Notes: generated by a model not told the origin, from the letters alone. A DNA stretch of 64,000 nt from an uncultured Chromatiales bacterium (GCA_964388175.1 CAYLYS010000004.1:2347-66346), one strand, 5' to 3'. Shown: positions 8,855 to 41,344, counted from the first letter of the stretch. A program made the numbers and translations.

Positions 8855-9613
8855 TCATCGGCCTATGGGTATGGTCAGATCCCGCGCCGCCGAAGCACTA
8901 CCTGGAGCAGCGACCGGCGCATCACGATCCGGCAGATTGCGGTCCACCCATTCACGGGTTCTTTCTTCTATCCACTGACGCTCGTGCTCCGGCAAGGGGC
9001 CGCGCGCGATCCGCACATCCCACTCCCACAGCGCCGAGCGCGCCTGACGCACGAAAGGATCGTCCTCTGGCGCGAGATGGATATAAGTGCGCATCGCACC
9101 CAGGGCGCCTTCCAGATCCTCGAGCGCTTCCAGCGCCACCGCCAATCCCCAATAGGCATTGCCCTGAAAAGGCTGCAGTTCGGTGGCGGCGAGGAAGAAA
9201 TCGCGCGCCGTGTCGTAACGCTCGAGTCCGAGCAGCGCATAGCCGAGATTGACATAGGCCTCCGGCAGACGCGGAGAGAGCGCGATGACGCGCTCGAGCG
9301 CGACGATGGCTTCCTCGTACCGGCGCGCGTGCAGCATGACCACGGCCTGCTCGAAACGCTGCTCGATCTCGGCCATGCGCGGATCGACCGGCGCCTGGCG
9401 CGATGTCTCTTGCCGCGCCGGCTGCTGCGGCTGCACCGCGGAAGCCGCCGCGACGACACGTGACGGCGATTGTCCGGGAAGATGCGCATTGAGCAGCAGC
9501 GATTTCAGATCGGGCCGCATCGCCAGCATGAAGATGGTGCACAGGATGATGCCGACGATGCTGAGCGACAGCGCCGATATCGCCGATTCATGCGGGTGCC
9601 GGCGCACGCTCAT
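8855..9613 (-). CDS. Membrane-anchored TPR-repeat protein
   Basis: N-terminal TM helix (ISALSLSIVGIILCTIFMLA), then TPR-like repeats (YEEAIVALERVIALSPRLPEAYVNLGYALLGLERYDTARDFF ... GNAYWGLAVAL). ATGA overlap with the ccsA stop. Confidence 0.6.
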   Translation of the reverse strand: MSVRRHPHESAISALSLSIVGIILCTIFMLAMRPDLKSLLLNAHLPGQSPSRVVAAASAVQPQQPARQETSRQAPVDPRMAEIEQRFEQAVVMLHARRYEEAIVALERVIALSPRLPEAYVNLGYALLGLERYDTARDFFLAATELQPFQGNAYWGLAVALEALEDLEGALGAMRTYIHLAPEDDPFVRQARSALWEWDVRIARGPLPEHERQWIEERTREWVDRNLPDRDAPVAAPGSASAARDLTIPIGR

Positions 9614-10470
9614 ATCACGCCCTTGTGCGCCGCTTCGCTGTAGAACGGCGTACCGAAATAGGTGAAGAAGGCGAAAGCGAACACGCCGATGATGGTCGCC
9701 GCGCCCACGCGCGGCGCAATGTTATAGGTGAAGCGCACGTGGATGGCGAGACCGAGCAGCAGCCAGTTGAGAAACGACGAGGTTTCGAGCGCATCCCAGG
9801 CCCAGTAGCGTCCCCAGGCATCCTGGGCCCAGACCGCGCCGGCGATCAGCATCAGGCTTTCGAAAACCAGCGCCAGCAGCATGAAGCGCCAGGCCACGGT
9901 ATCGAGTACGTCGTCGCCGGGCATGTGGCGGAAGAGATAGCGGAAACCTACCACGTCGCGCAACAGAATGATGCCGGCAAGACCGGTGCCGATGAGGCAA
10001 AAAGCGAGGAAGAATTTGCCGAAAATGACGTGCGCCCATTTCCAGTCGTGATAATAGGTCGGCGGGAAGGGGCTGGCGGCGGGATCGACCGTCACCACCC
10101 AGGCGCTCATGACCAGCAGGATCGGCAACACCACGACGGCTGTCGGCCTGATCAGGGGAATGCGCCAATAGACCACGGTGTATACCAGCCCGAGACTGAA
10201 CAGCTGGCTGATGAGCAGTTCGAACAGATCGACGAAAGGTCCGTGCCCCACCCGCAGCCAGCGCTCCGTCAGGGCGATCGTCAGCAGAATGACCGCCGCG
10301 GCGAGCAGCGTGAGCACATAGGTTTCCGGACGCCGGGAAAGCACGGCAGCGGTGCTGGTACGTCCTCCCGCGCGCAGTACGCCATGGGCGGCCAGCGCCA
10401 TTGCCAGCGCATAGCTGGCTATGCCCGCATACAGCCATGGCAGTTCCGACACCATGGTTTCCGTGTTCAT
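9610..10470 (-). CDS. ccsA: Cytochrome c-type biogenesis protein CcsA/ResC (System II heme-handling, WWD domain)
   Basis: Tryptophan-rich WWD motif WGRYWAWDALE and polytopic membrane topology. Start at MNTETMVSEL (ATG 10470, with GAGAGGA upstream). ATGA overlap with the resB stop. Confidence 0.85.
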   Translation of the reverse strand: MNTETMVSELPWLYAGIASYALAMALAAHGVLRAGGRTSTAAVLSRRPETYVLTLLAAAVILLTIALTERWLRVGHGPFVDLFELLISQLFSLGLVYTVVYWRIPLIRPTAVVVLPILLVMSAWVVTVDPAASPFPPTYYHDWKWAHVIFGKFFLAFCLIGTGLAGIILLRDVVGFRYLFRHMPGDDVLDTVAWRFMLLALVFESLMLIAGAVWAQDAWGRYWAWDALETSSFLNWLLLGLAIHVRFTYNIAPRVGAATIIGVFAFAFFTYFGTPFYSEAAHKGVI

Positions 10471-11498
10471 AGCGTTTTTCCTCTCGCCACATCGGATGCC
10501 GCATGCTTGCGGTCGGCCTCGCGGGCAATGGCATAGGTATGAACGGTGCCGAACTTGCGCCAGAAATGCGCGGCGAGCCCGAATACCGTGATGAACGCGA
10601 CGATGAACAGCCACTGCAAGGTCGGATCATAATACAACTTATAGCCCATCCAGCTCGACAGACGCTCATAACGCAGAAAACCGTCATCGAGCCGGATCGA
10701 TTGCCCCTGCGCCAGCTCCACGCGCTCATCTCCTGCGCGCACCACCAGCATGCCGCGCGCGTTCGCCGGCTCCAGGCGCCAGTCGGTCTGCGGATCCATG
10801 CCCGTTTCCAGTTGCAGCCAGAAGCGGATTTCCTGATCTCCCGGCCCCGGCACCCAGCGGTTCGCCTGGCGATGCTCGAACAGCGGATACGAGGGCATGT
10901 GAATGGCGCCGGTGACGGGCACGCCGGCGTCCGGCGTCCAGGTCAGGATGGCGGCAAAACCTTTGTTGAACGTGGTATAGAAGCGATAGCCGTCGAGCAC
11001 CAGCGGCGTATGGTCGCCGATCACCCGATGCTCCCAACCACCGCGGCCATCGGCAACGGCAATCTGGCTGCGCGTCGCGCCGCGCACCATGCCCGTGGAG
11101 TAATCGATGGCATACGGCCCCTGCAGGAAGTGCACGCGCTCGAAGTTGCCGCGGTGCCAGAGCCCCGTGCGGACATCGATCATGTCATCCGGTGAAAATG
11201 CCTGGCCTTCGGCGAGTTCGACGTTGGCTTCGAGGTAGGTCAGCCGGCCGATCGCAACGAGAACGGCGATGGCCAGCAGGCCGATATGGAACACCAGCAG
11301 GCCGCCGCGGCGGTTGATGCGCGGATCGGTGATGATGGCAGCGCACAGATTGATGGACAGCACGGTCAGCGGCGCAACCAACACCCAGACCGGCGTATCG
11401 ACAGGGTTGTCGTAGTTCAGCGCCGCACCCAAGCCGAGGAACACCATACCGAAAACGGTCAGACGCGTCGACGCGAGTTTGCGCAGAGCGCCACTCAT
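10467..11498 (-). CDS. resB: Cytochrome c biogenesis protein ResB/CcsB (System II)
   Basis: About 343 aa. N-terminal TM helices, a large periplasmic domain and a C-terminal TM, as in ResB. Start MSGALRKL at 11498 overlaps the undecaheme stop. Directly upstream of ccsA. Confidence 0.75.
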   Translation of the reverse strand: MSGALRKLASTRLTVFGMVFLGLGAALNYDNPVDTPVWVLVAPLTVLSINLCAAIITDPRINRRGGLLVFHIGLLAIAVLVAIGRLTYLEANVELAEGQAFSPDDMIDVRTGLWHRGNFERVHFLQGPYAIDYSTGMVRGATRSQIAVADGRGGWEHRVIGDHTPLVLDGYRFYTTFNKGFAAILTWTPDAGVPVTGAIHMPSYPLFEHRQANRWVPGPGDQEIRFWLQLETGMDPQTDWRLEPANARGMLVVRAGDERVELAQGQSIRLDDGFLRYERLSSWMGYKLYYDPTLQWLFIVAFITVFGLAAHFWRKFGTVHTYAIAREADRKHAASDVARGKTL

Positions 11499-14251
11499 GG
11501 CAGGTTCACGCAGGCCTCGTTGCTGTTGTTCATCCAATCGACGCCGACGATGGCGTTGCCGGGCGGGCCGGCCGAACCGCAGTTGACGTCCAGCCACTCG
11601 CCGCTGCGGGCGAAGCTGCGGATCTTCAGCGCGGAACCGAGATAGTAAGGCCCCTGATAATAGCGCCCGGTGCCGGACGACGCGAAACCGCTGTAGCGCA
11701 CCTGGGTACCCGGCGGCAGCTCGGCTTCCAGGCCGACGTCGTTGAGGTTGGCGAGGAAGGTCTTGTTCTTCCAGCCGTGCGGAATGGCGATGTGGCAATA
11801 GGTGCAGCGGAAATTCTGCACCACGAAGGCATGGCCCACATGCAGATTGACGCCGAGGAACTGCAGGCAGCCGCCACCTCCCACCGCGCGGCGGAATCCA
11901 CTCAACACCACGTCCGGATTGGGCGACAGCACGCCACGCGCATAGTTCTTGGGATCATGGCAGCGGAAGCACAGGTGATTGGCCGAATCCTCCTCAGTAG
12001 GACGCAAAGTGTTTGTTCCAGTCTGATCGTTCCAGTTGCCCTTGAGCAGGAAATTCTCGTCCGAACCGTGCGGTCCCCAGGGGAAACCATGCTCCCCACC
12101 CTCTGGCACCACGGTGTCACCCCGCGTACGTGAACCATGGCAGTCCGTGCAATACATGGTCTGCGTACCGACCGCCGTATTGAAGGGCGGACGCCAGGCA
12201 TTGCCGTCCGCGCCGCGCACCGCCGGCGTCCGTCCGGTCGGCTGCAGCGTGGGATGCCATGAGCGATGGTTGTTGGTGACGTAGTCGACCAGATTGCCCT
12301 GCGGATCGAGGCGCGAGAACGTCACCACGCCCTGGCCGCCGGAATCGGTCACCGTCGCCGGCACCGGCGCCTGTGCGCCGATATAGGCGCCGGTCGGCGT
12401 TCCCGGCGTGACCTCGCCCTGATGATCGCGCGGCGACTGGAACTCCATGCCCTGGTTGGTGTAATTGAACAGGGAGTTGGTGCCCGCCGGCGTCAGCCCG
12501 GAGGTATATCCCAGCGGCGGCGGAATATCGTAGGCGTAATTCGAGTGGCACTTCATGCACAGCTGATACTCGCGCGTCAGATACGGCGCGCTGACATCGG
12601 TGCTGCCGCCGACACCGGGATCGCCACGCTTGACCTGGAAATCGACCGGAATGCTGCCGAAGGCGGTATTGGCGTAGACCGGCTCGACGCCCCAGATGCC
12701 GCGCAGCACGCCCGAGGCGAGATTGCTCGGCGGAATGCCCGGCGTATGCTCGTGCGTCGGACCCGGATCGGGCACCGTCGGATCGGCGTTGAACAGACGG
12801 GTGCGCTGCACGCGATGCGGATTGTGGCAGTCGGTGCATTCGGCATGACGATTGGCGAGACCGCCGAGGCCGAGCAGTTCGCGCGACTCGATGAAATCCT
12901 GGCCGCGCTGCATGCCCTGCGTCGCGTCGTCGCCGGTGCCGATGTTGTGTACCTCACCCCCCGACAGTTGATCGGTGTTCGAGATCGGCATGTGCCGCGC
13001 CATGGTGGTGAAGTCAGTCTTGATGTCCGGAACTTCGAAGGCCGGATTGCTATTCGGACTGTTCTGTCCCTGCAGCGTCTGCGCGGTCGGCGGCCCGACG
13101 GCAGGATCGCCATGGCAGGCATAGCACACGTTTTCGATCGAGGGGTTGCCGCCCTGGCGGGCGCCGGTGACCGGATCGAGAGGGCCGTCGGTGCCTTCGC
13201 GCAGGATGCGCCGCGAACCCTGTACCGTGTGCGGATCGTGGCAGTTCAGACAGGCCGCCTGCCACACGCGCGTGCCGCGCGGGAATTCGCGCAGATCGGC
13301 GGCCTCGTTCGTATAACGCTCATCCGCCACCGCCGGATTGGCGTGCGCCGAACCGGCCCAGCCTTCCTTGTCGTGGCAGGCGAGGCAGATGATGTCGCGC
13401 TGCGCATCGAACTGTCCCTGCACCGGCGGCTGCTGCTGGAAGCGGTTCACGCGCAGGAACTTGATGTTCTCGCCCGGTACCTGCGAACGCAGATGGGGAT
13501 CGTGGCAGGTGATGCACTCCACCTTGGGACCGACGCCGTCGGCATCGCGTTCGAGCGGCAGATACTGGCCGCGCGGCAGCGGCTGGCGCGCTTCTCCGTC
13601 GATACGGCGCACGCGCTCATCCAGCCATGGCACCGAATTGGGATCGAACAGCTCGCCGTCACGCGCCGCCTGGGCGCTGTCGTAGGTGAAGGAGATCGGA
13701 TGGTCGTTGCTGAGATCGACGCCGAGATGACGGGTGAAGCCGGTCGTCACGCCGTGTCCCTGCGGTATCGTTCCCGGCGGTGAGCTGTCGCCGGCAGGGA
13801 AGGTGAACGGTACCGTGCGACCATCGCGGTTGGGCTGATCGCGATTGAGCACGTTGACCGCGCCGAGGGCAATAGTGCCGTCGTGGCACGACAGACACAG
13901 CTTGGACCGGCCCGTGGGCTGGCCGAGGTCGGTGGCGTCGATGGAACTCGATGAATACGGAATATAGGCCGTCTGCCGCAACTCGCGGTTCCACAGCGGC
14001 GCGTTCTGCGCGGGCGTCGCGCCGTGCGGCGTGTGGCAGAACACGCAGATCTGCGACTCTTCCGTGGCGAAGGCGCGGCGTTCGGTGCCGTCGGGGAGCG
14101 TGATACCAGCGGGCGGAACCGTGGCGGAGAAATTGTGCCGGGTGTTGGCGATGTCGGAGATCGGGGCCGCCGCCGACGCCCACATCGTCCACAGCGCGGC
14201 ACCGATACAGATGGCGGCGCCGGCGACAAAGGTAGACCAGCGACGCATCAC
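11495..14251 (-). CDS. Undecaheme c-type cytochrome, 918 aa, secreted
   Basis: Signal peptide and 11 CxxCH motifs, several in the form CxxCH(D/N)PH: CVFCH, CLSCH, CITCH, CLACH, CLNCH, CYACH, CTDCH, CMKCH, CTDCH, CFRCH, CTYCH. The N-terminal about 90 aa are homologous to the tetraheme protein at 22706..23545. Confidence 0.85.
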   Translation of the reverse strand: MMRRWSTFVAGAAICIGAALWTMWASAAAPISDIANTRHNFSATVPPAGITLPDGTERRAFATEESQICVFCHTPHGATPAQNAPLWNRELRQTAYIPYSSSSIDATDLGQPTGRSKLCLSCHDGTIALGAVNVLNRDQPNRDGRTVPFTFPAGDSSPPGTIPQGHGVTTGFTRHLGVDLSNDHPISFTYDSAQAARDGELFDPNSVPWLDERVRRIDGEARQPLPRGQYLPLERDADGVGPKVECITCHDPHLRSQVPGENIKFLRVNRFQQQPPVQGQFDAQRDIICLACHDKEGWAGSAHANPAVADERYTNEAADLREFPRGTRVWQAACLNCHDPHTVQGSRRILREGTDGPLDPVTGARQGGNPSIENVCYACHGDPAVGPPTAQTLQGQNSPNSNPAFEVPDIKTDFTTMARHMPISNTDQLSGGEVHNIGTGDDATQGMQRGQDFIESRELLGLGGLANRHAECTDCHNPHRVQRTRLFNADPTVPDPGPTHEHTPGIPPSNLASGVLRGIWGVEPVYANTAFGSIPVDFQVKRGDPGVGGSTDVSAPYLTREYQLCMKCHSNYAYDIPPPLGYTSGLTPAGTNSLFNYTNQGMEFQSPRDHQGEVTPGTPTGAYIGAQAPVPATVTDSGGQGVVTFSRLDPQGNLVDYVTNNHRSWHPTLQPTGRTPAVRGADGNAWRPPFNTAVGTQTMYCTDCHGSRTRGDTVVPEGGEHGFPWGPHGSDENFLLKGNWNDQTGTNTLRPTEEDSANHLCFRCHDPKNYARGVLSPNPDVVLSGFRRAVGGGGCLQFLGVNLHVGHAFVVQNFRCTYCHIAIPHGWKNKTFLANLNDVGLEAELPPGTQVRYSGFASSGTGRYYQGPYYLGSALKIRSFARSGEWLDVNCGSAGPPGNAIVGVDWMNNSNEACVNLP

Positions 14252-15312
14252 GCCTCACCCAGGAGTTGGAATATCATGATACGACCGTTGAAAGCATCAG
14301 CGACGTAGATCCGGTCACGGTGATCCGTCCAGACCCCGGCGGGCAGATAGAACTCTCCGATGCCACTGCCGGAACCTCCGATGGCCAGCAGCAGCTCCCC
14401 TCCATCGTTGAATACTAACAGATGGTCATAATAGGATTCCACCACATAGACATTGCCGTGAGAATCCACCGCAACGCCTTTGGGCCGCGGCATATCGCCG
14501 ACGAAAAGGCCACGCCGGCCGAATTCGCGCACGAATTTTCCGTCGGCATCGAAAATCTGCACTCTCGCATTCAGTGTATCGGTGACGATGAGGCGATCGT
14601 CGACGTAGGTGAGATACGTCGGCGCATTGAATTCACCCGCGCCTTCGCCGTGCGCACCGATGCGTCCGAGCAGCTCGCCGGCATCGCTGAAAATCTTGAC
14701 GTCGTGCGCCTGTGCATCGGCGACGAAGATCCGTCCGCGCGCCGCGTCGCGCACCACGCCGACCGGACGCTCCACTTGGCCGAGACCGATGCTGCCGCGC
14801 GGTTCGCCATCAGCACCGAGGCGCACGATCACCTTCAGATCCGCATCGGCGACCAGGATCTCGCCGTTGGCGCCGGGCGCGATGCCGACCGGCGTCATGA
14901 AACGCACCATCGGCCCGGCCGCCTGCCACAGCAACAGCTTGCCCTGTGCTTCGTCGAAAACGAAAATCGCCCCCCGGCTGACGTCGGTGACGAAGATGCG
15001 TCCGTCCTCGCCGACGAAACCGTTCTGCGGCCGCTGCAGGATCATCGGCGTATGCTTGGAACTGCCCAGCCCGACGACCCAGCTCAGCAAACGGCTGCCG
15101 ATACTGCTCACCTTGGACGAAGAAAAATTCTCCTCACCGGTGAGCTGACCGACCAGCGCATAGCGGGCCGTATCCGGCGCCTGGGGCCAGCGGAAACGCT
15201 CGTCTCCGGCGTATTCATACTGCAGCGTGGCGGGTCCGCTGGCGCATCCGGCCATGAACAGACACAGGAACAGAACGAACGGCAGTCCCGCGCGTGCCTG
15301 ACGCACGCTCAT
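14248..15312 (-). CDS. NHL-repeat (six-bladed beta-propeller) lipoprotein
   Basis: Lipobox FMAGC and six NHL-like repeats (e.g. GRIFVADAQAHDVKIF, DRLIVTDTLNARVQIFD, GNVYVVESYYDHLLVF, DRIYVADAFNGRIMIF). ATGA overlaps on both sides. Confidence 0.8.
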   Translation of the reverse strand: MSVRQARAGLPFVLFLCLFMAGCASGPATLQYEYAGDERFRWPQAPDTARYALVGQLTGEENFSSSKVSSIGSRLLSWVVGLGSSKHTPMILQRPQNGFVGEDGRIFVTDVSRGAIFVFDEAQGKLLLWQAAGPMVRFMTPVGIAPGANGEILVADADLKVIVRLGADGEPRGSIGLGQVERPVGVVRDAARGRIFVADAQAHDVKIFSDAGELLGRIGAHGEGAGEFNAPTYLTYVDDRLIVTDTLNARVQIFDADGKFVREFGRRGLFVGDMPRPKGVAVDSHGNVYVVESYYDHLLVFNDGGELLLAIGGSGSGIGEFYLPAGVWTDHRDRIYVADAFNGRIMIFQLLGEA

Positions 15313-16361
15313 CGCACCGCCGGCTCCGCGTCGACAGGCGCCGCCCCCGGCCAGGACGCCAGTGTCAGAATCTGAATGCGGCGGTTCAGGCTGTCGGCGA
15401 CATAGAGGAATCCTTCGTCCAGCCACAGGTCGGTGATGCGGCGGAAGCGGCCCGGCGCCGAACCGTGCCCACCGATGACGCCGATCAATTGGCTGCCCTG
15501 ATAGACCTTGATGTCGTCGCTGAGATAATCCGCGACGAAGGCGCGCTGCTGATGATCGACGACGATCGCCGTGGGGAAGGTAACGGTATCCTGTTGGAAC
15601 GATTCCCGGTACGCGCCATCCGGGCCCATGACCTGGACCCGCGCCGGACCATAGCGGGTGGCGATGTAATAGCCTGCCGGCCCTTGCGCCAGCGCGGTGA
15701 TGCCGAGAAAACGTCCCGCCCCCGCGCCACGCACGCCGATCGCACCCGACAGCAGTCCGGCAGGGTTGTACACCAGCACGTCATCGTTGAAACCATCGGC
15801 GATGAATACATAACCGGTATCGTCGTTGACCACCACGTTCATCGGACGACCGATGTTGATGCGGTCCTCGATGGTTCTGAGCAGGCGGCCATCGGCATCG
15901 AAATGCAAAACCCGGGCGCCGTCGGTATCGGCGAGGTAGAACGACAGATCGCGGTTGAGATGGATATCGGCGGCGTTGCCATGCAGAACGCCCTTGAGAT
16001 CGAGGACCATGCTCAGGCGGTCGAGGCGCCTGTCATATCTGAACAACTGCTGGTGACCGGCATCGACGATGTAGACCAGATGGCCTTTCGCCGCCACCGC
16101 CACGGGTTGCAGCAGCTGCGTGGAGATCGGCCCCGTCAGCATCTGCCATTCTCCGCTGCCGCTGGGCGCGCTGTCGAGCACCTGCCAAAGCTCGCCCGGC
16201 CCGGTCTGCGCCATGGTTTGCGGCGCCGGAGGCGCCGACGGCGGGGCGAAACGGGCAACATCCTCGCGCGTCAAGGCACAGGCCTGCAGCAGCAGGGCGA
16301 GCGCGGCGAAGATCAGCGCAGCAGGGTAACGTCTTGGGGTACGGAATGACATCTGCCGCAA
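15309..16361 (-). CDS. NHL-repeat beta-propeller lipoprotein (second copy)
   Basis: Lipobox LLQAC and NHL-like repeats (GHLVYIVDAGHQQLFRYD, LSFYLADTDGARVLHFD, GYVFIADGFNDDVLVY, GFLYVADSLNRRIQIL). The start (16361 or 16352) overlaps the 3' end of the upstream triheme gene by about 40-50 nt. Confidence 0.75.
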   Translation of the reverse strand: MRQMSFRTPRRYPAALIFAALALLLQACALTREDVARFAPPSAPPAPQTMAQTGPGELWQVLDSAPSGSGEWQMLTGPISTQLLQPVAVAAKGHLVYIVDAGHQQLFRYDRRLDRLSMVLDLKGVLHGNAADIHLNRDLSFYLADTDGARVLHFDADGRLLRTIEDRINIGRPMNVVVNDDTGYVFIADGFNDDVLVYNPAGLLSGAIGVRGAGAGRFLGITALAQGPAGYYIATRYGPARVQVMGPDGAYRESFQQDTVTFPTAIVVDHQQRAFVADYLSDDIKVYQGSQLIGVIGGHGSAPGRFRRITDLWLDEGFLYVADSLNRRIQILTLASWPGAAPVDAEPAVR

Positions 16362-16924
16362 TTCAGCGTGGGAGAGAATGCGACCTTACCATGACAAACG
16401 CCACAGAAGTCGCCCTGGATGATCGCCGACATGGAAACCGGATTGGCGCCGGCTTGCGGAATGAAGATCGCAGGATGGCAATTGGCGCATGTCAGCCACT
16501 CCGTATGCTGCAGATGGGGAAACCGCACCCACGGCATGGACTGCGTATTCCTGAAAATGATATCGAAATCGACCGGGAACATGTCCATGCTGCCGTCGAG
16601 CGAGGTGCGCGGCTCGATCAGCCTGCGCTCCAATGTCTTCACCCAGTCGATCTGCCCGGAACCATCGCGCGGGAAACCGGCCATGGCCTCATACGGCTGC
16701 TGCAGAACGGCAACCGCTTCGCCGCTGGGATCATGGATGCCGTCCTCCGCGACCGGAGCGATATCGCCGCGCATCTGGAAATGGGCGCCGCGCGACCACA
16801 ATGGCGCATCCTGCTCCTGTTGCGGGAATACGCTGCCCGCGGCACCCGCTGCCGCACTGACCGTCAAGGCCGCACATAGCGCCAGCAGACGCCACGCGCT
16901 CAGCGGATGCCCTCTTTTCATCAT
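16313..16924 (-). CDS. Triheme c-type cytochrome (c7/c3-like), periplasmic, copy A
   Basis: Signal peptide, then FPHLQHTEWLTCANCH, CGVCHGK and CGRCHS: three CxxCH motifs with distal His ligands in c7-like spacing. Paralogous to 18614..19264. Confidence 0.8.
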   Translation of the reverse strand: MMKRGHPLSAWRLLALCAALTVSAAAGAAGSVFPQQEQDAPLWSRGAHFQMRGDIAPVAEDGIHDPSGEAVAVLQQPYEAMAGFPRDGSGQIDWVKTLERRLIEPRTSLDGSMDMFPVDFDIIFRNTQSMPWVRFPHLQHTEWLTCANCHPAIFIPQAGANPVSMSAIIQGDFCGVCHGKVAFSPTLNCGRCHSVPQDVTLLR

Positions 16925-18507
16925 CTCACGCCCATCGCCTGCAAAGCGCGCTGAATATTGCTGGTGGCGCCCTGCAGCATGAGTATGGCTTCCTGGTAAT
17001 TACCGCGCGCGGCCTCGGGTTCGGACAAGGCCTTGACCTCTCTCGCCCGGTCGATGAACGGCATGATCAGCTTTCTGGTCTGCTCATTGGGTTCGCGCTG
17101 CTGAATGGCGAGCGGCACCAATCCTTCATAACCGAGGTAGCGCGACAGCTCGTATTCATATTCATCGCGTGGCGTCTGAAACACCAGTTCATGCACGATG
17201 GTCTGTTCGGCCAGCATCTCGGTCAGCGCCGTAGTCAGCGTATTCTGGGCGCCGCCCAGCATGCTGATCGCCTCGTTGTACTTGCCGTCATCGGCAAGCG
17301 ACCTGGCGTTGCTCATGACGCTCTCGATCTGCTTCAGATCGACGGCGCGGACGTTGCTTCGCCCCTTGTTCTTGACCATCTGCTCGTAGTTGCGGCGGTA
17401 CGAGGCCTCGAACCCCTGCACACCCTCATACATCTCCAGGAAACGGGCGCGCTCGGCCTCGCCGCGCGATTCCTGAGGCACCAGCAGGGAAGACTCGCTC
17501 ATCAGCCGCATGGCATCTTCGACCAGAGGCAGCGCATTCTGCTGTTCGCCGGCGGACAGCGCGCCGCGGGCTTGCTCGAAACGCTGCTGCGCATCGCGGT
17601 AGAGAGCGAGCGCGGTCTCGTTGCCGCTGTCGCGGATGCGCGCGGCAGCCGGCGACTGATTGATGAACATGTCGGCGAACTGAATCTTCTGCTGGATCTG
17701 CTGCGCCGATACGTTGCGCTGCTGCGCGCTCTGTGCACCCGCATCCGCGGTTCCCGGCATCTTGCCGCCGCGAGCGGCCTGCAGCTCGGCGATGGACAGA
17801 TTCTCCTGCCCCTCATTGACGATGTAGATCGGGCCACCCATGTTCCGGTGGTTTCGGCACTGGTAATAGAGCAGATCCGGCGCCTGCGCACTCGGCGTGA
17901 ACGTCACCACACCTTCATAGATGAACTGGCCGCTGACGCCATCGACATAGGTCGCGGCACCCCAGCCGACCTCGCTGCCGGAAAGGTAGAAATCGTGCTG
18001 TATGCCGGCATTGACGCTGAAACGATAGGTCTTGCCTCTCACCATCACCAGCGGCTTGCCCTGCACGCCATTGACTACGAATCCCATGCGATGGCCGACG
18101 CCATAGTAGGGATGCGAAGTATCCTTGGTCTCGGTGACGACATTGAACAGGAAAGGCGAGCTCGGCGGCGCCTCGCGCGCCGGCACCGCGGCAGGGACAG
18201 GAACGGATGAAGGCGCCGACGCCGACTCGGCTGGAACCGGAGCTGGTGCCGCTTCCACCGTCGCCGCGGAGGGTTCGGGTTGCAGCGGCACGACCTCGGC
18301 GACAGGCGTCTCCTCGGCGGGCGCTGGCTGGAGAAGCGCCGACGATGGGATGACCACTGTCACCTCCTGGGGCGAAGCAGCAACGGCAGACGGCGCCGAC
18401 GCTGCGGTCGGAGCGGAAGCAGGCGCATCGCTTCCGGTCGTGGCGCAGGCGGACAGCGTCAGCGCGATGATTGCCGGGAACAGCAGGCTAGGGAAACGGG
18501 ATCGCAT
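16921..18507 (-). CDS. Lipoprotein with Pro/Ala-rich linker, cupredoxin-like (putative type-1 copper) domain and long alpha-helical C-terminal domain
   Basis: Lipobox LTLSAC with a strong SD (AGGGAGGA) before ATG 18507. About 110 aa P/A/S-rich linker. Domain with candidate copper ligands (His in IQHDFY; C-x2-H-x2-M in YYQCRNHRNMGG). About 300 aa Q/A/R/E-rich helical tail. Confidence 0.55.
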   Translation of the reverse strand: MRSRFPSLLFPAIIALTLSACATTGSDAPASAPTAASAPSAVAASPQEVTVVIPSSALLQPAPAEETPVAEVVPLQPEPSAATVEAAPAPVPAESASAPSSVPVPAAVPAREAPPSSPFLFNVVTETKDTSHPYYGVGHRMGFVVNGVQGKPLVMVRGKTYRFSVNAGIQHDFYLSGSEVGWGAATYVDGVSGQFIYEGVVTFTPSAQAPDLLYYQCRNHRNMGGPIYIVNEGQENLSIAELQAARGGKMPGTADAGAQSAQQRNVSAQQIQQKIQFADMFINQSPAAARIRDSGNETALALYRDAQQRFEQARGALSAGEQQNALPLVEDAMRLMSESSLLVPQESRGEAERARFLEMYEGVQGFEASYRRNYEQMVKNKGRSNVRAVDLKQIESVMSNARSLADDGKYNEAISMLGGAQNTLTTALTEMLAEQTIVHELVFQTPRDEYEYELSRYLGYEGLVPLAIQQREPNEQTRKLIMPFIDRAREVKALSEPEAARGNYQEAILMLQGATSNIQRALQAMGVR

Positions 18508-18560
18508 TCCTCCCTCATATACTCTGGCATACATTCGGGCACACACTCAGACAGACATCC

Positions 18561-18613: not shown

Positions 18614-19264
18614 TTATCTCCAAGGATTCTTGACGGTCGCCTCGCTCAACGGTGGCTTCCAGTCCGCGGGCTTGGGCTTGGAATGACACTTCCCGCAGGT
18701 CGTCGTGGTCACCGGGAAGGACACCTTGCCATGGCACACGCCGCATTTCTCACCCAGCAGAATAGCAGACATGTTGATCTGATTGGATCCCGCCTGCGGC
18801 ACGAAGATCGCCGGATGGCAGTTCGAGCAGAACAGCCATTCCGTATGCTGCCGATGCGGGAACACCACATCCGGCATCGATGCCTTCACCGGTCTGACGA
18901 TATCGAGATCCATGACGAAGGGCTCTTCCGATGAATCGATGCGATCCCAGCGCGGGCGCAGCAGACCTTGATCCAGCGCCTGCACCCAGTCGATACGGTT
19001 GCCGAACACGGTACGCGGCAATCCCTGATAGGCTTCTTCCGGCGGCTGCAGCGAGAAGGTCGCCTCGTTGCTGGTGTCGTGGATACCGTCTTCCCACGGC
19101 GGCGGATTGGCGCTGTCACGCTTCTTCAGGTTGACGTTGAACTCATTGGCGGAAGAAACGCGCGATTCCTGCGCCGATACCGACTGTATCTGCCAAGGCA
19201 GCGCAAAAACCACCAGTGCAGCGGACAGACCGAGTGCGATCGAGACTTTCTTGATGATATTCAT
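18614..19264 (-). CDS. Triheme c-type cytochrome (c7/c3-like), copy B
   Basis: Signal peptide, then FPHRQHTEWLFCSNCH, CGVCHGK and CGKCHSK. Clear paralog of copy A (shared DGIHD, IDWVQAL and HTEWL blocks). Confidence 0.8.
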   Translation of the reverse strand: MNIIKKVSIALGLSAALVVFALPWQIQSVSAQESRVSSANEFNVNLKKRDSANPPPWEDGIHDTSNEATFSLQPPEEAYQGLPRTVFGNRIDWVQALDQGLLRPRWDRIDSSEEPFVMDLDIVRPVKASMPDVVFPHRQHTEWLFCSNCHPAIFVPQAGSNQINMSAILLGEKCGVCHGKVSFPVTTTTCGKCHSKPKPADWKPPLSEATVKNPWR

Positions 19265-19287: not shown

Positions 19288-19737
19288 TTATTGCTGCGAC
19301 TGTGCGCCGGCTGCGGGGTCCAGCGGCTTGAATGCCGGGGCCACGAGACGCTGCACGGTGCTGCCGTGGAAGTGAGTGGGAGTGCCGGGAATACCGGAAT
19401 GGCACATGGCACAGTTTTCGACCGACCAGGCCACCTCGCCGTTGTGGCAGGCGCCGCAGAACTGGCCGTCCACGATCTTGGCCATCGTGATCTGATTACC
19501 GCCCGCCTTGAACTGGAAGCCCAGGTCGGCGTGGCAAACCTTGCAGCGGAAACGCACGCGATGGAACCAGTGCGGGAACACCACTGGACGCATGGCCGCG
19601 GCATCGGAATAGTTATTGATGACGACGTCGCCGTATTCCGCCTGTGCTGGCTGCGGCGCCGCCCATATCCACAAACCGATCAGGAGCCCCGCAAACAGCG
19701 AGATGCGCGCAGGCATCCGAGAGATCATCGATGGCAT
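19288..19737 (-). CDS. Triheme c-type cytochrome, copy C (divergent, 149 aa)
   Basis: Signal peptide, then FPHWFHRVRFRCKVCH, CGACHNG and CAMCHSG. Same heme spacing logic but low identity to A and B. Confidence 0.8.
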   Translation of the reverse strand: MPSMISRMPARISLFAGLLIGLWIWAAPQPAQAEYGDVVINNYSDAAAMRPVVFPHWFHRVRFRCKVCHADLGFQFKAGGNQITMAKIVDGQFCGACHNGEVAWSVENCAMCHSGIPGTPTHFHGSTVQRLVAPAFKPLDPAAGAQSQQ

Positions 19738-19814: not shown

Positions 19815-21578
19815 TCAGAAACGACGGTTTATCTGAAAATAGATAATATTGTAATTGTCGTCATTCTGATCGCCGGAGAAACTGATGTAGCGCCAGCTCA
19901 GACTGGTATCCACCAGCCCGATCACGTAGTCCAGTCGGTTCTCCCACTCTGCGCGGTCTATCCCCTCGTCCGTGGCCGCGCGCGCAATACGCAAATCCGA
20001 GTTGAACCGAAGCTGGGCTATGTCGAACAAGCCCATGTGCCGGTAGGTCACCTGGCCGGTTGCGGTTACTGTATCATTATCCCGCAGCCCGTTGAAGTCC
20101 CGGCTCACCATTTGCACCGTCAGATTTCCGCTCAACATGCTGTACAGACTGAGCGTCTGATTGCGCATGAACTGCAGATTGGCGAATTGCTGATTGTCGT
20201 CCTGATCGCCGAATCCGCGGGAATCCGACAATGTCAGGTGGATCATCGTCGTCCCGCTCTCACCGTGCCGGTCCCATGACAGGCTGCCGGTGTGATCCAG
20301 GCGCTGGGTATTGATATCATCGGCCGTATCCGCCGTTTGATAAACCGTGCTAACCGACTGGCTCAGACTCAGGCGGAAAGTCCCCCGTCCATCCGTCATC
20401 CACATGCGCTGCGCATCGTGCCCGAGGCGGACCAGCCCGGTCAGCAAGTCCTCGCTGCCGGTATTCTGGTTCTGGGCCGATGCCTGAGCATGCCAGTTAT
20501 AGGTGAAATGGGTGAAAAGCGGGCGCAGATCGGATTGATAGAGCGCGCCGAGGCGCTGCCGGGAGGTCATATCCACACCGGCGGTATTGGTGTCCGTGAC
20601 ATCGACATTGGCGTCGAAACGCAGATTCTTCGTGTACTGATAAAAAGCGCCGGCGGTGGCGCTGACGCTGGCCTGATCGATCTCCCTGCCAGCGTTACTC
20701 GCCGCCATGTCGAAGAGGCGCACGCCCGCGCTCACCGACAGCGGTCTGTCGACCGGCCGCCAGAACAGAAAGCTCGACACCTGGGTATACGTTATATCCG
20801 CCCTGGCCAGATTGGTGCTGCCGGGCGCCTGTGCCGACCGGGTATCGGAATCGTAGTAGCTGACCATGGTATCGAAGCGCAGCGCCCGATCCGGATGGTA
20901 GAAGTGCTCGACGTTGAGCAGCTTGATATCGTTGTCCTGATCGATGGTCGCCAGCTCTATTTGCTGGTAGCTGGTCCTGGCGCTCAGGGTATGCTGCGGG
21001 CGGCGCATATTGTATTCCAGCCCGATCAGCTGATCCTTGTAGCTCTCGATACCGCGCGACTCCCAGGTGCCATGATCGAAGCGCAACTGAAAACGATCGC
21101 CGACTTCGGTCAGATAGCTCTGGCGCAGCGACAGCCGCCGCGTCTGAAAGTCATAACTGCTGAGCCCGGACACGGGATTGGGCAGCGTGACCGAATCGAC
21201 GCGGCTGTCGCTCATGCGGTAGGACAGCGAAAAAGGGGTACGGCTTTGCGGCAGGACGTTGAGATCGAGATCGAGACCGAGAATGGTCGTGCGCGATGAG
21301 GCGCCCGCATCATAGCTGCTGGCATCCTGGGTCGCGCGCAGCCCCGCGGACAGATTGGCGAACCACGGCTCCCACAGATAGGCCTGCGCGTTCAGCGCGG
21401 CACGCAACTGGTTGCTGTGCGCATCGCTGTTGTCGCTGCCCGTGATCGAACGGAAGGTATAGCCGACACTGCCGGAAACGTCGCTCACTCCGACCGCCGC
21501 CGCCGCAGCCTGCGCACTCCACAGCGCCGCGGCCACCGCGCACAGCATCGAACCGAGTTGACGCTTCCCCTCTGGCAT
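19815..21578 (-). CDS. Putative outer-membrane beta-barrel protein (587 aa, no heme-binding motif)
   Basis: Signal peptide (MLCAVAAALWSAQAAAAAV). Sequence rich in alternating hydrophobic/polar stretches and Y/W/F. C-terminal aromatic residue (...YFQINRRF). Only one Cys in the whole protein, so no CxxCH. Confidence 0.55.
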   Translation of the reverse strand: MPEGKRQLGSMLCAVAAALWSAQAAAAAVGVSDVSGSVGYTFRSITGSDNSDAHSNQLRAALNAQAYLWEPWFANLSAGLRATQDASSYDAGASSRTTILGLDLDLNVLPQSRTPFSLSYRMSDSRVDSVTLPNPVSGLSSYDFQTRRLSLRQSYLTEVGDRFQLRFDHGTWESRGIESYKDQLIGLEYNMRRPQHTLSARTSYQQIELATIDQDNDIKLLNVEHFYHPDRALRFDTMVSYYDSDTRSAQAPGSTNLARADITYTQVSSFLFWRPVDRPLSVSAGVRLFDMAASNAGREIDQASVSATAGAFYQYTKNLRFDANVDVTDTNTAGVDMTSRQRLGALYQSDLRPLFTHFTYNWHAQASAQNQNTGSEDLLTGLVRLGHDAQRMWMTDGRGTFRLSLSQSVSTVYQTADTADDINTQRLDHTGSLSWDRHGESGTTMIHLTLSDSRGFGDQDDNQQFANLQFMRNQTLSLYSMLSGNLTVQMVSRDFNGLRDNDTVTATGQVTYRHMGLFDIAQLRFNSDLRIARAATDEGIDRAEWENRLDYVIGLVDTSLSWRYISFSGDQNDDNYNIIYFQINRRF

Positions 21579-22622: not shown

Positions 22623-22705
22623 CCGAGAATACATGCCAGTCCGGAGCCATGGGGCGGCGGCATTCTGCCCGCAGCATGCCCTGCCGCCCAGGTAGCGCTC
22701 GCCCG

Positions 22706-23545
22706 TCATTTATTGTGGCAAGTCAGACACACTGAACTGCCCACGGGGTCTACGCGCAAAAACAGAGGGTTGTAATCGACATGGGGATCATGGCAGGAAG
22801 CGCATTCCACATAGGGCTGCGGTTCGCCGACGAACACCCCGCGCGTTGCGACCCGGGTGTACAGCTTCATGTCGGACTTTTCGAAATCCGACGATCCCCC
22901 GACGGTACGGGTGTTGACCCACCAGAATCTTTCGCTGCCGACGATCTTGGTTTCCGCCTGATGGAAATCCGGATCGCGCCCCGGCCCGTGCGGATTGGCC
23001 TGGGAATAGCCGCCGCCGGCATACTGCACCGAAACCGGATGATCGTCGCGCAGATCCTTGCCGAGATTGGTGATGACCGTCACCGGGCCGATCCGCCCGC
23101 CCACCGGCGCGGCCTGGCCGCTCCAGACTCCCGCCCTGAAGGCCCAGTTCTCCGCGCCCGAGCCCGGCTCGTTGATCAGTGCGTCCATGGCCTGCGTCCC
23201 GTCGTGACAGGACAGGCAGGCGATCGATACCGAGCCGATCGGCTCGATGGCCGCATCGAGACTGGTGGAACCCAGCTGGTCATAGGTGGTGAATCCGGCA
23301 CTGCCGGGATCGATGTAGCGATTCCACAGAGGAACGGCGACCGAGGCATCGGCGCCGTGCGGCGTATGGCAGAAAACGCAGATCTCCGACGTGCCGCTGA
23401 AATTGCTCGCGGCATTGACGCCGGTACTGCCAAGATTATGCTTGGTATTGAAGATACCGGCGTTGACGGCGTGCGCCGACAGCAGTACGGCCCCGAGCAT
23501 GAGAACCAGCCAGGAACGTCTGCAAGTATGGTGACTTGCTCGCAT
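22706..23545 (-). CDS. Tetraheme c-type cytochrome, secreted
   Basis: Signal peptide and CVFCHTPHG, CLSCHDG, CASCHDPH, CLTCHNK. The N-terminal module NTKHN...CVFCHTPHG...PLWNR...CLSCHDG matches the N-terminus of the undecaheme. Confidence 0.8.
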   Translation of the reverse strand: MRASHHTCRRSWLVLMLGAVLLSAHAVNAGIFNTKHNLGSTGVNAASNFSGTSEICVFCHTPHGADASVAVPLWNRYIDPGSAGFTTYDQLGSTSLDAAIEPIGSVSIACLSCHDGTQAMDALINEPGSGAENWAFRAGVWSGQAAPVGGRIGPVTVITNLGKDLRDDHPVSVQYAGGGYSQANPHGPGRDPDFHQAETKIVGSERFWWVNTRTVGGSSDFEKSDMKLYTRVATRGVFVGEPQPYVECASCHDPHVDYNPLFLRVDPVGSSVCLTCHNK

Positions 23546-41341: not shown

Positions 41342-41344
41342 GAC

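What the first reader, a model, noticed from the sequence alone, without database searches (positions are those of the whole stretch)
11495..14251. Undecaheme cytochrome built from a duplicated module shared with the tetraheme protein; recurring CxxCH(D/N)PH signature
Four of its 11 heme sites have the extended form CxxCH(D/N)PH (CVFCHTPH, CITCHDPH, CLNCHDPH, CTDCHNPH). The first about 90 residues (NTRHNFSATV...CVFCHTPHGA...PLWNRE...CLSCHDGTIA) are collinear with the N-terminus of the 279-aa tetraheme cytochrome at 22706..23545 (NTKHNLGSTG...CVFCHTPHGA...PLWNRY...CLSCHDGTQA). This suggests both proteins were assembled from the same diheme start module.

The protein is long (918 aa) relative to its heme count: about 83 aa per heme, against about 35-65 for MtrC/OmcB-type wires. 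It therefore carries substantial non-heme domains (e.g. residues about 520-660 between hemes 7 and 9). These could be binding or insertion domains.
Basis: seen in the sequence. Interest (0 to 1): 0.7.

Follow-up and report, generated by a model that had tools for sequence, protein, structure and literature searches.

The report
Known UetJ undecaheme cytochrome, OmcE-like head
The gene encodes an ortholog of UetJ/OccP, an already described but biochemically untested 11-heme cytochrome of a conserved extracellular-electron-transfer cluster; its first four hemes form a module related to the Geobacter OmcE "nanowire" subunit, which suggests it could plug into a cytochrome filament.

Summary
ORF 11495-14251(-) has 11 CxxCH motifs. 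The whole 279-aa tetraheme protein (22706-23545), not just about 90 residues, aligns collinearly with its residues 3-295 (BLASTP 1e-24; profile 5e-43).

The protein is not new. Gene order around it is exactly the published uetABCDEFGHIJ-ccsBA-TPR cluster of Ca. Tenderia (Eddie 2022), also described as occ/OccP in Ca. Dechloromonas occultata (Szeinbaum 2020). The 918-aa protein is UetJ and the tetraheme protein is UetA. Full-length 11-heme orthologs occur in at least 580 species genomes. CxxCH(D/N)PH is the known "doubled CXXCH" domain (PF09699).

Best reading: an extracellular heme wire, possibly the base or tip adaptor of a UetA filament (inferred). There is no sign of an enzyme. This is a new member of a known kind, of moderate interest.

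The parts
11495..14251 (-). uetJ/occP ortholog: 918-aa (917 from the ATG at 14248) undecaheme c-type cytochrome with a Sec-type signal peptide
   Evidence: ORF. 11 CxxCH. 50-90% identical full-length homologs. 53-56% identity to Ca. Tenderia MAG orthologs in identical synteny. Published description of UetJ and OccP.
13367..14164 (-). Residues about 30-295: OmcE-type tetraheme module (hemes 1-4), paralogous to UetA. Carries the NTRH, CVFCHTPH, PLWNR, CLSCHDG, NDHP, CITCHDPH, FLR and CLACHDK blocks
11498..13366 (-). Residues 296-918: family-specific 7-heme extension (hemes 5-11). Begins with the invariant GW..SAH303 block. Contains a beta-rich heme-poor subdomain (about 520-660) and a C-terminal about 90-aa domain with the conserved C891/C914 pair
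   Evidence: No PDB or Pfam relative beyond doubled-CXXCH motifs. 480 cluster representatives, and every complete one also carries the OmcE-like N-terminus. AF2 pLDDT 86-94 and strands in 521-656. Conservation.
22706..23545 (-). uetA: 279-aa tetraheme cytochrome, an OmcE homolog and candidate filament subunit. Ends right after heme 4 (CLTCHNK)
   Evidence: phmmer against 7tfs_A 1.5e-24 and 9yuq_N 1.7e-23. BLASTP against G. sulfurreducens OmcE, 32% over the full length, 3e-28. All 120 listed homologs have 4 hemes.
21627..22709 (-). uetB: SurA/PpiC-type peptidyl-prolyl isomerase
   Evidence: Pfam Rotamase and SurA_N. Position matches UetB.
19815..21578 (-). uetC: 587-aa putative outer-membrane beta-barrel (no Pfam hit; C-terminal Phe)
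   Evidence: No family hit. Conserved in 43 of 57 loci. Predicted to be a 28-strand barrel in Tenderia. No detectable homology to the Geobacter OmcE-cluster 752-aa barrel.
19288..19737 (-). uetD: triheme c7-type cytochrome
   Evidence: TIGR04257 nanowire_3heme at 67.6 bits; PF14522.
18614..19264 (-). uetE: triheme c7-type cytochrome
   Evidence: TIGR04257 at 60.2 bits. Weak hit to Geobacter PpcA, 6e-6.
16921..18546 (-). uetF: about 530-aa lipoprotein-like protein (called a cupredoxin in Tenderia)
   Evidence: Position and synteny. Only sub-threshold Pfam hits.
16313..16924 (-). uetG: triheme c7-type cytochrome
   Evidence: TIGR04257 at 64.6 bits.
15309..16361 (-). uetH: NHL beta-propeller with a lipobox-like LQAC
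   Evidence: Pfam NHL and DUF5128. 6e-12 to the Geobacter OmcE-cluster NHL protein.
14248..15426 (-). uetI: NHL six-bladed beta-propeller (likely start 15312, lipobox-like MAGC). Its stop codon overlaps the uetJ ATG
   Evidence: Pfam DUF5128 6e-25 and NHL. 32% identity, 4.4e-45, to the Geobacter OmcE-cluster NHL protein. Present next to UetJ in 51 of 57 loci. TGATG overlap.
10467..11498 (-). ccsB/resB (likely ATG at 11498, an ATGA overlap with the uetJ stop): system II cytochrome c maturation
   Evidence: Pfam ResB. Start mapping.
9610..10470 (-). ccsA: heme-handling cytochrome c assembly protein (ATGA overlap with ccsB)
   Evidence: Pfam Cytochrom_C_asm. 1.5e-18 to Geobacter CcsA of the OmcE locus. 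Start mapping.
8855..9613 (-). TPR protein (NrfG-like) ending the conserved module
   Evidence: Pfam TPR families. Conserved after ccsA in most loci.

Best explanation
The ORF is an ortholog of UetJ (Ca. Tenderia) / OccP (Ca. Dechloromonas occultata). This is the secreted 11-heme c-type cytochrome of the conserved uetABCDEFGHIJ-ccsBA extracellular-electron-transfer cluster.

Shown here:
- Identity and synteny with the published cluster.
- 11 invariant heme sites, plus 16 further conserved histidines. That is enough for bis-His ligation of every heme, so nothing suggests an open catalytic heme.
- A two-part anatomy. An N-terminal tetraheme module (residues about 30-295) is homologous to the OmcE nanowire subunit and to the co-encoded UetA. 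A 7-heme extension (296-918) is unique to this family.

Inferred:
- It acts as an electron wire outside the cytoplasmic membrane. It passes electrons between an external donor or acceptor and the periplasmic triheme cytochromes UetD/E/G, and it is matured by the translationally coupled CcsBA system.
- The most likely specific mechanism (about 30%) is as follows. UetA polymerises like OmcE. UetJ uses its OmcE-like head, including the conserved N-terminal NTxH histidine, to join one end of that filament heme-to-heme. UetA and OmcE end at heme 4, where the next subunit would stack. In UetJ the covalently attached hemes 5-11 occupy that position. This would make UetJ a polar base or tip adaptor that links the filament either to the UetC barrel and periplasm or to the substrate.
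For: Gene order in the window equals the published Uet order (against the figure legend read). tblastn synteny across 80 loci shows UetI in 51 of 57, UetD in 49 of 57 and UetA in at least 41 of 57 loci with a full flank. There is 53-56% full-length identity to the orthologs in two Ca. Tenderia MAGs. 117 of 120 and 82 of 87 homologs have 11 CxxCH.

OmcE homology of the N-module. UetA homology to OmcE. The NHL propeller is homologous to the OmcE-cluster propeller at 4.4e-45, and ResB/CcsA and a c7 triheme (PpcA) are adjacent in Geobacter too. This matches the 'minimal OmcE cluster' (multiheme cytochromes, beta-propeller lipoproteins, OmcE and a large beta-barrel next to resB/ccsB) described in bioRxiv 10.1101/2025.10.22.684050.

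UetA and OmcE terminate at CH.K of heme 4, while UetJ continues with the invariant G297-W298-S301-A302-H303. The C-terminal extension is never found without the OmcE-like head. The AF2 model has pTM 0.80.

Expression support from the literature: the undecaheme is highly expressed in cathode-grown Ca. Tenderia (Eddie 2022), and its neighbouring triheme genes are among the most highly expressed genes in that organism (PMC5371394). Several occ-cluster cytochromes are highly expressed during Mn(III) reduction (10.1101/695007).
Against: There is no biochemical or genetic test of any Uet/Occ protein. Localisation rests on predictors used by others.

Polymerisation of UetA is unproven. I could not establish which OmcE histidine bridges subunits, because the OmcE structure paper is not held and no coordinates are available.

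Six of 57 loci carry UetJ-like genes with no other uet gene within 10 kb, and some genomes have 2-3 tandem UetJ paralogs. UetJ may therefore work without an adjacent UetA.

UetC shows no detectable homology to the Geobacter OmcE-cluster barrel. The N-module is the least confident part of the AF2 model (pLDDT 41-69 over residues about 30-190).
Confidence: 0.7

Rival explanations
1. UetJ is a free-standing cell-surface terminal oxidoreductase, functionally like MtrC/UndA. It sits on or near the UetC porin and exchanges electrons directly with minerals, electrodes or chelated metals. It has no physical connection to a UetA filament. The OmcE-like head is only an inherited heme-packing scaffold whose N-terminal histidine folds back onto its own heme.
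For: Both original papers propose an extracellular terminal reductase or oxidase. Solitary and tandem UetJ paralogs occur without UetA nearby. UetJ-N, UetA and OmcE are three about equally distant, ancient branches (31-33% identity), so no recent co-adaptation is evident. A weak PF22113 MtrC-domain hit scores 35 bits.
Confidence: 0.3
2. UetJ is the trans-outer-membrane conduit. Like MtrA in MtrB, its elongated heme chain threads the large UetC barrel and carries electrons between the periplasmic triheme cytochromes and extracellular UetA.
Against: The TIGR03508 DmsE/MtrA model scores 33.8 bits against a cut-off of 192. At 918 aa, with beta-rich heme-poor subdomains and a disulfide-bearing C-terminal domain, it is bulkier than MtrA-type wires. 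The PSORT predictions by others are extracellular.
Confidence: 0.15
3. UetJ itself polymerises head-to-tail into an 11-heme-per-subunit nanowire. The N-terminal histidine of one subunit would ligate a heme in the C-terminal extension of the previous one.
For: It has an OmcE-like head with a conserved donor-type N-terminal His. Solitary and tandem UetJ loci lack UetA. There are 16 conserved non-motif His for 11 hemes, so spare ligands exist.
Against: There is no homology between the C-terminal end and the heme-4 end of OmcE or UetA. The globular C-terminal domain with a conserved Cys pair is not obviously a stacking interface. There is no precedent.
Confidence: 0.07
4. The protein is a multiheme enzyme (octaheme nitrite, hydroxylamine or tetrathionate reductase-like) rather than an electron wire.
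For: Heme-poor stretches could in principle form a substrate pocket. Conserved M421, M699 and M907, and the surplus histidines, leave the ligation scheme open.
Against: There are no sequence or profile hits to any such enzyme in Pfam, NCBIfam or the PDB, and no fold match. There is no CxxCK or other atypical catalytic heme motif. The genomic context consists entirely of EET, secretion and maturation genes.
Confidence: 0.02

Closest known systems
UetJ of 'Candidatus Tenderia electrophaga' / Tenderiales (uetABCDEFGHIJ cluster; Eddie et al. 2022, mSphere; bioRxiv 10.1101/2022.05.06.490989)
   Same: 11 CxxCH, about 900 aa and a signal peptide. The neighbour order is identical: UetA tetraheme, PPIase, barrel, 2 trihemes, UetF, triheme, 2 NHL propellers, UetJ, CcsB/CcsA and TPR, with Bat genes nearby. 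There is 53-56% identity to Ca. Tenderia MAG orthologs.
   Different: This is a different, unnamed gammaproteobacterial lineage. The best database hits are unnamed contigs at 90% identity and a Gammaproteobacteria MAG protein at 82%. Here the bat genes lie on the opposite strand. The Uet paper reports 'no other conserved functional domains' in UetJ and never mentions OmcE.
OccP of 'Candidatus Dechloromonas occultata' (occA-S cluster; Szeinbaum et al. 2020, bioRxiv 10.1101/695007)
   Same: An extracellular-predicted undecaheme of 922 aa in a cytochrome-rich cluster with 6-NHL repeat proteins. A Dechloromonas locus (L052) has the same uet synteny and 44% identity.
   Different: OccP was proposed as a Mn(III) reductase (electrons flowing out), whereas UetJ was proposed for cathode or iron oxidation (electrons flowing in). 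Betaproteobacterial clusters carry an extra triheme gene and often an extra UetF-like gene.
OmcE tetraheme nanowire subunit of Geobacter sulfurreducens (PDB 7tfs) and Desulfuromonas soudanensis (probably PDB 9yuq; bioRxiv 10.1101/2025.10.22.684050)
   Same: Residues about 30-295 share the fold and all eight heme-ligand histidines, plus the PLWNR, DHP and FLR blocks. The cluster shares a homologous NHL propeller, ResB/CcsA and c7 trihemes, and has an analogous large barrel.
   Different: OmcE is 232 aa with 4 hemes and ends at heme 4. UetJ carries a further 620 aa and 7 hemes. Identity is only about 31%. The barrel is not detectably homologous. The host is a proteobacterial probable lithoautotroph rather than a Desulfuromonadia metal reducer. 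Polymerisation has not been shown.
MtrC/OmcA/UndA outer-surface deca- and undecaheme cytochromes of Shewanella
   Same: A similar heme number (UndA has 11), a similar predicted location and a similar proposed role as a terminal extracellular electron-transfer protein. There is a weak PF22113 hit.

Membership tests
UetJ/OccP undecaheme cytochrome family (Uet/Occ cluster) | Eleven CxxCH heme-binding motifs in a protein of about 850-950 aa with an N-terminal signal peptide | tested here: met
   11 CxxCH in 918 aa. Hydrophobic N-terminus followed by ASA/AAP. 117 of 120 close and 82 of 87 distant homologs also have 11.
UetJ/OccP undecaheme cytochrome family (Uet/Occ cluster) | Full-length sequence similarity to UetJ of Tenderia / OccP of Dechloromonas | tested here: met
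   56% and 53% identity over residues 12-897 and 12-918 to Ca. Tenderia sp. MAG loci L007 and L008. 44% to an uncultured Dechloromonas locus, L052. The type sequences themselves (Tel_16545, OccP) were not available for a direct comparison.
UetJ/OccP undecaheme cytochrome family (Uet/Occ cluster) | Synteny: uetA (tetraheme), uetB (PPIase), uetC (barrel), uetD/E (triheme), uetF, uetG (triheme), uetH/I (NHL), uetJ, ccsB/ccsA, TPR | tested here: met
   The window order equals the published order. The same order is found in most of 57 fully flanked loci.
UetJ/OccP undecaheme cytochrome family (Uet/Occ cluster) | Extracellular location and a role in extracellular electron uptake or metal reduction | not testable with these tools
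   Only predictions and expression data exist in the literature.
OmcE-type cytochrome nanowire subunits | Sequence and fold homology to OmcE (PDB 7tfs) | tested here: met
OmcE-type cytochrome nanowire subunits | Four CxxCH plus four further conserved heme-ligand histidines | tested here: met
   H39, H76, H184 and H253 plus the four motif histidines are invariant or nearly so, and they align with the OmcE and UetA histidines. The feature is as defined.
OmcE-type cytochrome nanowire subunits | Small tetraheme protein (about 210-300 aa) ending just after heme 4 | tested here: not met
   UetJ continues for 623 residues with 7 more hemes. The neighbouring UetA does meet this feature. UetJ is therefore not itself an OmcE-type subunit, only a carrier of the module.
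OmcE-type cytochrome nanowire subunits | Genomic association with a beta-propeller lipoprotein and a large outer-membrane beta-barrel | tested here: met
   UetI and UetH are homologous to the Geobacter OmcE-cluster NHL protein (4.4e-45 and 6.5e-12). The 587-aa UetC is present, but it is not detectably homologous to the Geobacter barrel.
OmcE-type cytochrome nanowire subunits | Polymerisation with inter-subunit histidine-heme ligation | not testable with these tools
   No coordinates and no heme-aware multimer modelling were available. The OmcE structure paper is not held.
MtrC/OmcA/UndA family | Match to the family model (TIGR03507), with pentaheme domains alternating with beta-barrel domains | tested here: not met
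MtrA/DmsE periplasmic decaheme family | Match to TIGR03508 above the cut-off | tested here: not met
Octaheme/pentaheme multiheme enzymes (ONR, HAO, NrfA, NrfB) | Sequence or fold match, and an atypical catalytic heme motif | tested here: not met
   NrfB scores 16.8 bits against a cut-off of 166.6. There are no PDB hits. All motifs are canonical CxxCH.

The most novel reading that the evidence does not exclude
The Uet/Occ cluster of Gamma-, Beta- and Alphaproteobacteria, Nitrospinota and Magnetococcales encodes an OmcE-type cytochrome nanowire system. UetA would be the filament subunit. UetJ would be the long-sought specialised end-piece: an initiator/anchor or a tip. It is an OmcE-like head covalently fused to seven extra hemes that occupy the position of the next subunit. 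This would make the filament polar and connect it either to the cell, through the UetC barrel and the periplasmic trihemes, or to the substrate. Bacterial cytochrome nanowires would then extend from anaerobic metal reducers to lithoautotrophs that take up electrons. It would also give the first candidate answer to how such filaments start or stop.
Probability: 0.25. Interest if true: 0.75.

Novelty: new member of a known kind. Interest (0 to 1): 0.4.

Why it matters
As a gene, this is one more ortholog of a named but uncharacterised family, UetJ/OccP. That family is used as a marker for extracellular electron uptake in Tenderiales, Gallionella and Leptothrix.

The useful addition is the link between two literatures that do not cite each other in the library searched. 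The Uet/Occ papers report no domain in UetJ. The OmcE nanowire papers ask what caps or anchors the filament and find no candidate in the Desulfuromonadia operons. UetJ is exactly such a candidate: an OmcE-like module with extra hemes, encoded in the same operon as an OmcE homolog.

If this is true, it makes nanowire initiation and termination directly testable. It would also suggest that conductive cytochrome filaments underlie electron uptake by biocathode and iron-oxidising bacteria. Culturable carriers make genetics feasible, for example Hydrogenophaga sp. RWCD_12 (L045) and Sphaerotilus mobilis DSM 10617 (L058).

Tried and rejected
1. AF2 with a 26-sequence alignment gave pLDDT 36 and was unusable. 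It was repeated with 118 sequences.
2. Foldseek against the PDB returned nothing. The afdb50 library was unavailable.
3. Whole-module internal duplication in UetJ: a 26-sequence profile suggested that hemes 1-3 correspond to hemes 5-7 (Prob 93%). This shrank to a 50-column diheme unit with an 87-sequence profile and with independent UetA and OmcE profiles. I rejected it as motif-driven.
4. Homology of UetC to the Geobacter OmcE-cluster 752-aa barrel: no BLASTP hit, and hhalign gave Prob 0.5%. It is not supported and only analogy remains.
5. Homology of the UetJ extension to the two Geobacter OmcE-cluster multiheme cytochromes: about 96% Prob over about 100 columns to the 9-heme protein. This is motif-prone, so I left it as a weak lead.
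6. A stand-alone version of the 7-heme extension: the apparent N-less hits start mid-motif without a signal peptide, so they are truncated gene calls.
7. The OmcE structure paper (PMC9357133) is not held. The bridging histidine could therefore not be identified.
8. PCC3/PCC4 of He et al. 2017 was considered and rejected, because the heme numbers and components differ.
9. A search for an 'omcS-companion (osc)' cluster paper, recalled from memory, found nothing in the library.

Full report
**1. Observation**

The ORF 11495..14251 on the minus strand is real and encodes 918 aa. It contains exactly eleven canonical CxxCH motifs and no variant motifs. Four motifs have the extended CxxCHxPH form (CVFCHTPH, CITCHDPH, CLNCHDPH, CTDCHNPH) and a fifth is partial (CFRCHDPK).

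The likely initiation codon is the ATG at 14248. It overlaps the stop codon of the upstream gene as TGATG. The downstream ccsB and ccsA genes and the TPR gene each overlap their predecessor in the ATGA manner. The genes uetI, uetJ, ccsB, ccsA and the TPR gene therefore look translationally coupled.

**2. Similarity to the 279-aa tetraheme protein**

BLASTP aligns essentially the whole small protein with residues 3-295 of the large one, at 30% identity and E=1e-24. All four hemes are in register. A profile of the small protein's family matches residues 30-295 with probability 100% and E=4.9e-43.

A joint alignment shows blocks invariant across both families: the His of NTxH, CxxCHTPH, PLWNR, S..CxSCHDG, DHP, CxxCHxxH, FLR and CLxCHxK. 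The refutation criterion "similarity limited to CxxCH pentapeptides" is therefore not met.

**3. What the motif is**

CxxCH(D/N)PH is the core of the curated "doubled CXXCH" domain. It scores 71 bits against Pfam PF09699 and 58 bits against TIGR01905. It is not a new signature.

**4. What the locus is**

All genes lie on the minus strand. In transcription order the neighbours are:
- the tetraheme cytochrome
- a SurA/PpiC-type prolyl isomerase
- a 587-aa protein with no family hit that ends in Phe (a putative beta-barrel)
- two triheme c7-type cytochromes
- an approximately 530-aa lipoprotein-like protein
- a third triheme c7-type cytochrome
- two NHL beta-propellers
- the undecaheme cytochrome
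- ResB/CcsB, CcsA and a TPR protein

This matches, gene for gene, the uetABCDEFGHIJ-ccsAB-nrfG cluster defined in "Candidatus Tenderia electrophaga" and the order Tenderiales (Eddie et al. 2022; read). [quoted passage not shown]

The same family was described earlier as OccP, a 922-aa undecaheme in the occA-S cluster of "Ca. Dechloromonas occultata". Several cytochromes of that cluster were highly expressed during Mn(III) reduction. Uet genes have since been reported in Gallionella and in Leptothrix group 2.

**5. Distribution and conservation**

- A protein search returned more than 4,600 hits. The top 120 are all full length and 50-90% identical. They are mostly unnamed or labelled "cytochrome c3 family protein" from gammaproteobacterial MAGs.
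These lie in Gamma-, Beta- and Alphaproteobacteria, Magnetococcales and Nitrospinota.
- They include two Ca. Tenderia MAGs at 56% and 53% identity. They also include isolates such as Hydrogenophaga sp. RWCD_12, Sphaerotilus mobilis DSM 10617 and Aromatoleum evansii KB740.
- Among 57 loci with a full 10-kb upstream flank, UetI is present in 51, UetD in 49, UetC in 43 and UetA in at least 41. UetA sits a median 9.6 kb upstream, so it often lies at the edge of the flank.
- Heme number is fixed. 117 of 120 close homologs and 82 of 87 distant homologs have 11 CxxCH, and every UetA homolog examined but one has 4.

**6. Anatomy of UetJ: the N-terminal module**

Comparison with solved structures gives only two significant relatives, and both match the N-terminal part only:
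- 7tfs_A, the G. sulfurreducens OmcE nanowire: E=1.5e-16 with the single sequence and 6.4e-30 with the family profile.
- 9yuq_N, a 16-chain "putative multiheme cytochrome c": E=3.5e-22 with the profile. It is very probably the D. soudanensis OmcE bundle of bioRxiv 10.1101/2025.10.22.684050.

UetA hits the same two entries at 1.5e-24 and 1.7e-23. An OmcE-family profile covers the entire mature OmcE against UetJ residues 30-295, with E=5.5e-34.

UetJ-N, UetA and OmcE are three roughly equidistant branches, 31-33% identical between groups and 47-52% within groups. The duplication is therefore ancient.

**7. Anatomy of UetJ: the C-terminal extension**

UetA and OmcE terminate two residues after the heme-4 CxxCH. 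UetJ continues with an invariant GW..SAH303 block and seven more hemes.

This 623-residue extension has no relative in Pfam, NCBIfam or the PDB beyond doubled-CXXCH units. An exhaustive search with the extension alone found 480 cluster representatives, 130 of them at E<=1e-30. Every complete one begins with the OmcE-like "SDIxNTKHN...CVFCHTPH" head. The apparent head-less hits are truncated gene calls.

The model shows a confident beta-rich subdomain, with strands at 521-541 and 627-656 and pLDDT of 86-94. The last approximately 90 residues form a conserved domain with a conserved Cys891/Cys914 pair. However, the stretch 520-660 includes heme 8, and the aa-per-heme ratio is not exceptional (UetA has 70).

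Sixteen non-motif histidines are at least 90% conserved. That is more than the eleven needed for bis-His ligation, so nothing points to an open catalytic heme.

**8. Internal duplication**

A shallow profile suggested that hemes 1-3 correspond to hemes 5-7. With a broader profile, and with independent UetA and OmcE profiles, only a diheme doubled-CXXCH unit of about 50 columns remained. "Built from a duplicated module" therefore holds between the two genes, but not as a tetraheme repeat within UetJ.

**9. Relation to the Geobacter OmcE locus**

I fetched the G. sulfurreducens OmcE locus. Its order is: PpcA (triheme c7), ResB, CcsA, a 9-heme cytochrome, an 8-heme cytochrome, an NHL propeller, OmcE, a 752-aa barrel, and then glycosyltransferases.

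- The NHL protein is clearly homologous to UetI (32% identity, E=4.4e-45) and to UetH (6.5e-12).
- OmcE matches UetA (3e-28) and UetJ residues 23-295 (6e-25).
- CcsA matches CcsA.
- The barrel shows no detectable homology to UetC.
- The two Geobacter multiheme cytochromes resemble the UetJ extension only weakly.

Petersen et al. describe this "minimal OmcE cluster". They already note OmcE homologs with barrel and propeller neighbours in Pseudomonadota. The UetA-OmcE link is thus implicit in the 2025 preprint, although that preprint does not mention Uet.

No paper in the searchable library connects Uet or Occ with OmcE. The same preprint asks what starts or stops an OmcE filament. [quoted passage not shown]

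**10. Mechanism**

Shown: the ORF is a UetJ/OccP ortholog with an OmcE-type head and a family-specific 7-heme tail. It is co-encoded and translationally coupled with a dedicated system II maturation pair. It also lies in a cluster with an OmcE-type tetraheme protein, propeller lipoproteins, a putative barrel and three periplasmic-type triheme cytochromes.

Supported by the literature but untested: it is extracellular. The undecaheme and its neighbouring triheme genes are highly expressed in cathode-grown Tenderia, and several occ-cluster cytochromes are highly expressed in Mn(III)-reducing Dechloromonas.

Inferred: it is an electron wire in an outer-membrane-crossing conduit that can probably run in either direction.

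My preferred specific model has a probability of about 0.25-0.3. UetA polymerises like OmcE, and UetJ docks by its homologous head onto one filament end. Its covalently attached hemes 5-11 sit where the next subunit would stack on heme 4. This would make UetJ a polar base or tip adaptor.

**11. Caveats**

- Six of 57 loci have UetJ-like genes with no other uet gene within 10 kb, and some have two or three tandem copies.
- The N-module is the least confident part of the model.
- I could not determine which OmcE histidine bridges subunits.
- No heme-aware multimer modelling or coordinates were available.

**12. Rivals**

- A free-standing MtrC/UndA-like surface reductase (0.3).
- An MtrA-like trans-barrel conduit (0.15).
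- A UetJ homopolymer (0.07).
- A multiheme enzyme (0.02). This rival has no support from Pfam, NCBIfam, PDB sequence or fold searches.

**13. Verdict**

The finding is genuine. It is a new member of a known, named but biochemically uncharacterised family. The signature motif is a known domain. The shared-module idea is right in kind but wrong in extent.

The added value is twofold. First, the head of UetJ, like UetA, is an OmcE nanowire-type module. Second, UetJ fits the description of the missing filament end-piece. That hypothesis is testable but unproven. Interest is 0.4.

Noticed in passing
window 39168-46663 (-): An Alternative Complex III-like operon. It comprises a pentaheme cytochrome c (46001-46663), a molybdopterin-family subunit (43711-45948), a 4Fe-4S subunit (42839-43711), an NrfD membrane subunit (41345-42796) and a monoheme cytochrome c (40248-40817). 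In Tenderia, ACIII expression clusters with that of the undecaheme.
   Followed up: partly
window 4580-8100 (+): BatB-like VWA protein (4580-6439) and BatD (6433-8100). These belong to the bat module that Eddie et al. count as part of the conserved uet region. Here they are on the opposite strand, convergent with the uet operon.
   Followed up: partly
window 8143-8844 (-): A DsbA-like thioredoxin-fold protein directly downstream of the TPR gene. It is possibly a thiol-redox helper for cytochrome c maturation or for the conserved C891/C914 pair of UetJ.
   Followed up: no
window 23671-25964 (-): Two general-porin-type genes immediately upstream of uetA: Porin_4 at 23671-24777 and an OmpL/PorinO_P-like gene at 24942-25964. 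A Por1 homolog precedes uetA in only 1 other locus, L004.
   Followed up: partly
window 9610-15426 (-): A chain of overlapping stop and start codons: uetI/uetJ as TGATG at 14248-14250, uetJ/ccsB as ATGA at 11495-11498, ccsB/ccsA at 10467-10470 and ccsA/TPR at 9610-9613. This suggests translational coupling of the undecaheme with its own maturation system.
   Followed up: partly
L028, L074, L077, L020, L050; L040, L047, L055, L060, L069: Some genomes carry two or three tandem UetJ paralogs. Others carry solitary 11-heme UetJ-like genes with no other uet gene within 10 kb. One Thiohalomonadales MAG has three separate UetJ loci (L041, L047, L055).
   Followed up: partly
L013-L080 (beta/alpha-proteobacterial loci, e.g. 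L015, L018, L045): Compared with the window and with Tenderia, many clusters have an extra triheme gene (a UetD-like gene after UetG) and a second UetF-like gene. UetH is often too divergent to detect, being found in only 25 of 57 loci.
   Followed up: no
L025 (Gallionella), L071, L056: Rearranged clusters in which a UetA-like tetraheme gene lies much closer to uetJ than in the window: about 2 kb and about 6 kb upstream in L025 and L056. In L071 the UetA-like segment directly abuts a truncated uetJ call and may be a split N-terminus.
   Followed up: no
L081 3437-13121 (G. sulfurreducens OmcE locus): The periplasmic triheme PpcA gene lies immediately upstream of resB-ccsA and the OmcE cluster. 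This parallels the c7-type trihemes UetD/E/G inside the uet cluster. PpcA gives a weak hit to UetE (6e-6).
   Followed up: partly
window 37547-39007 (-): Ribulose-phosphate 3-epimerase and a HAD-family phosphatase sit next to the ACIII operon. This is compatible with an autotrophic (CBB) lifestyle like that proposed for the Tenderiales.
   Followed up: no
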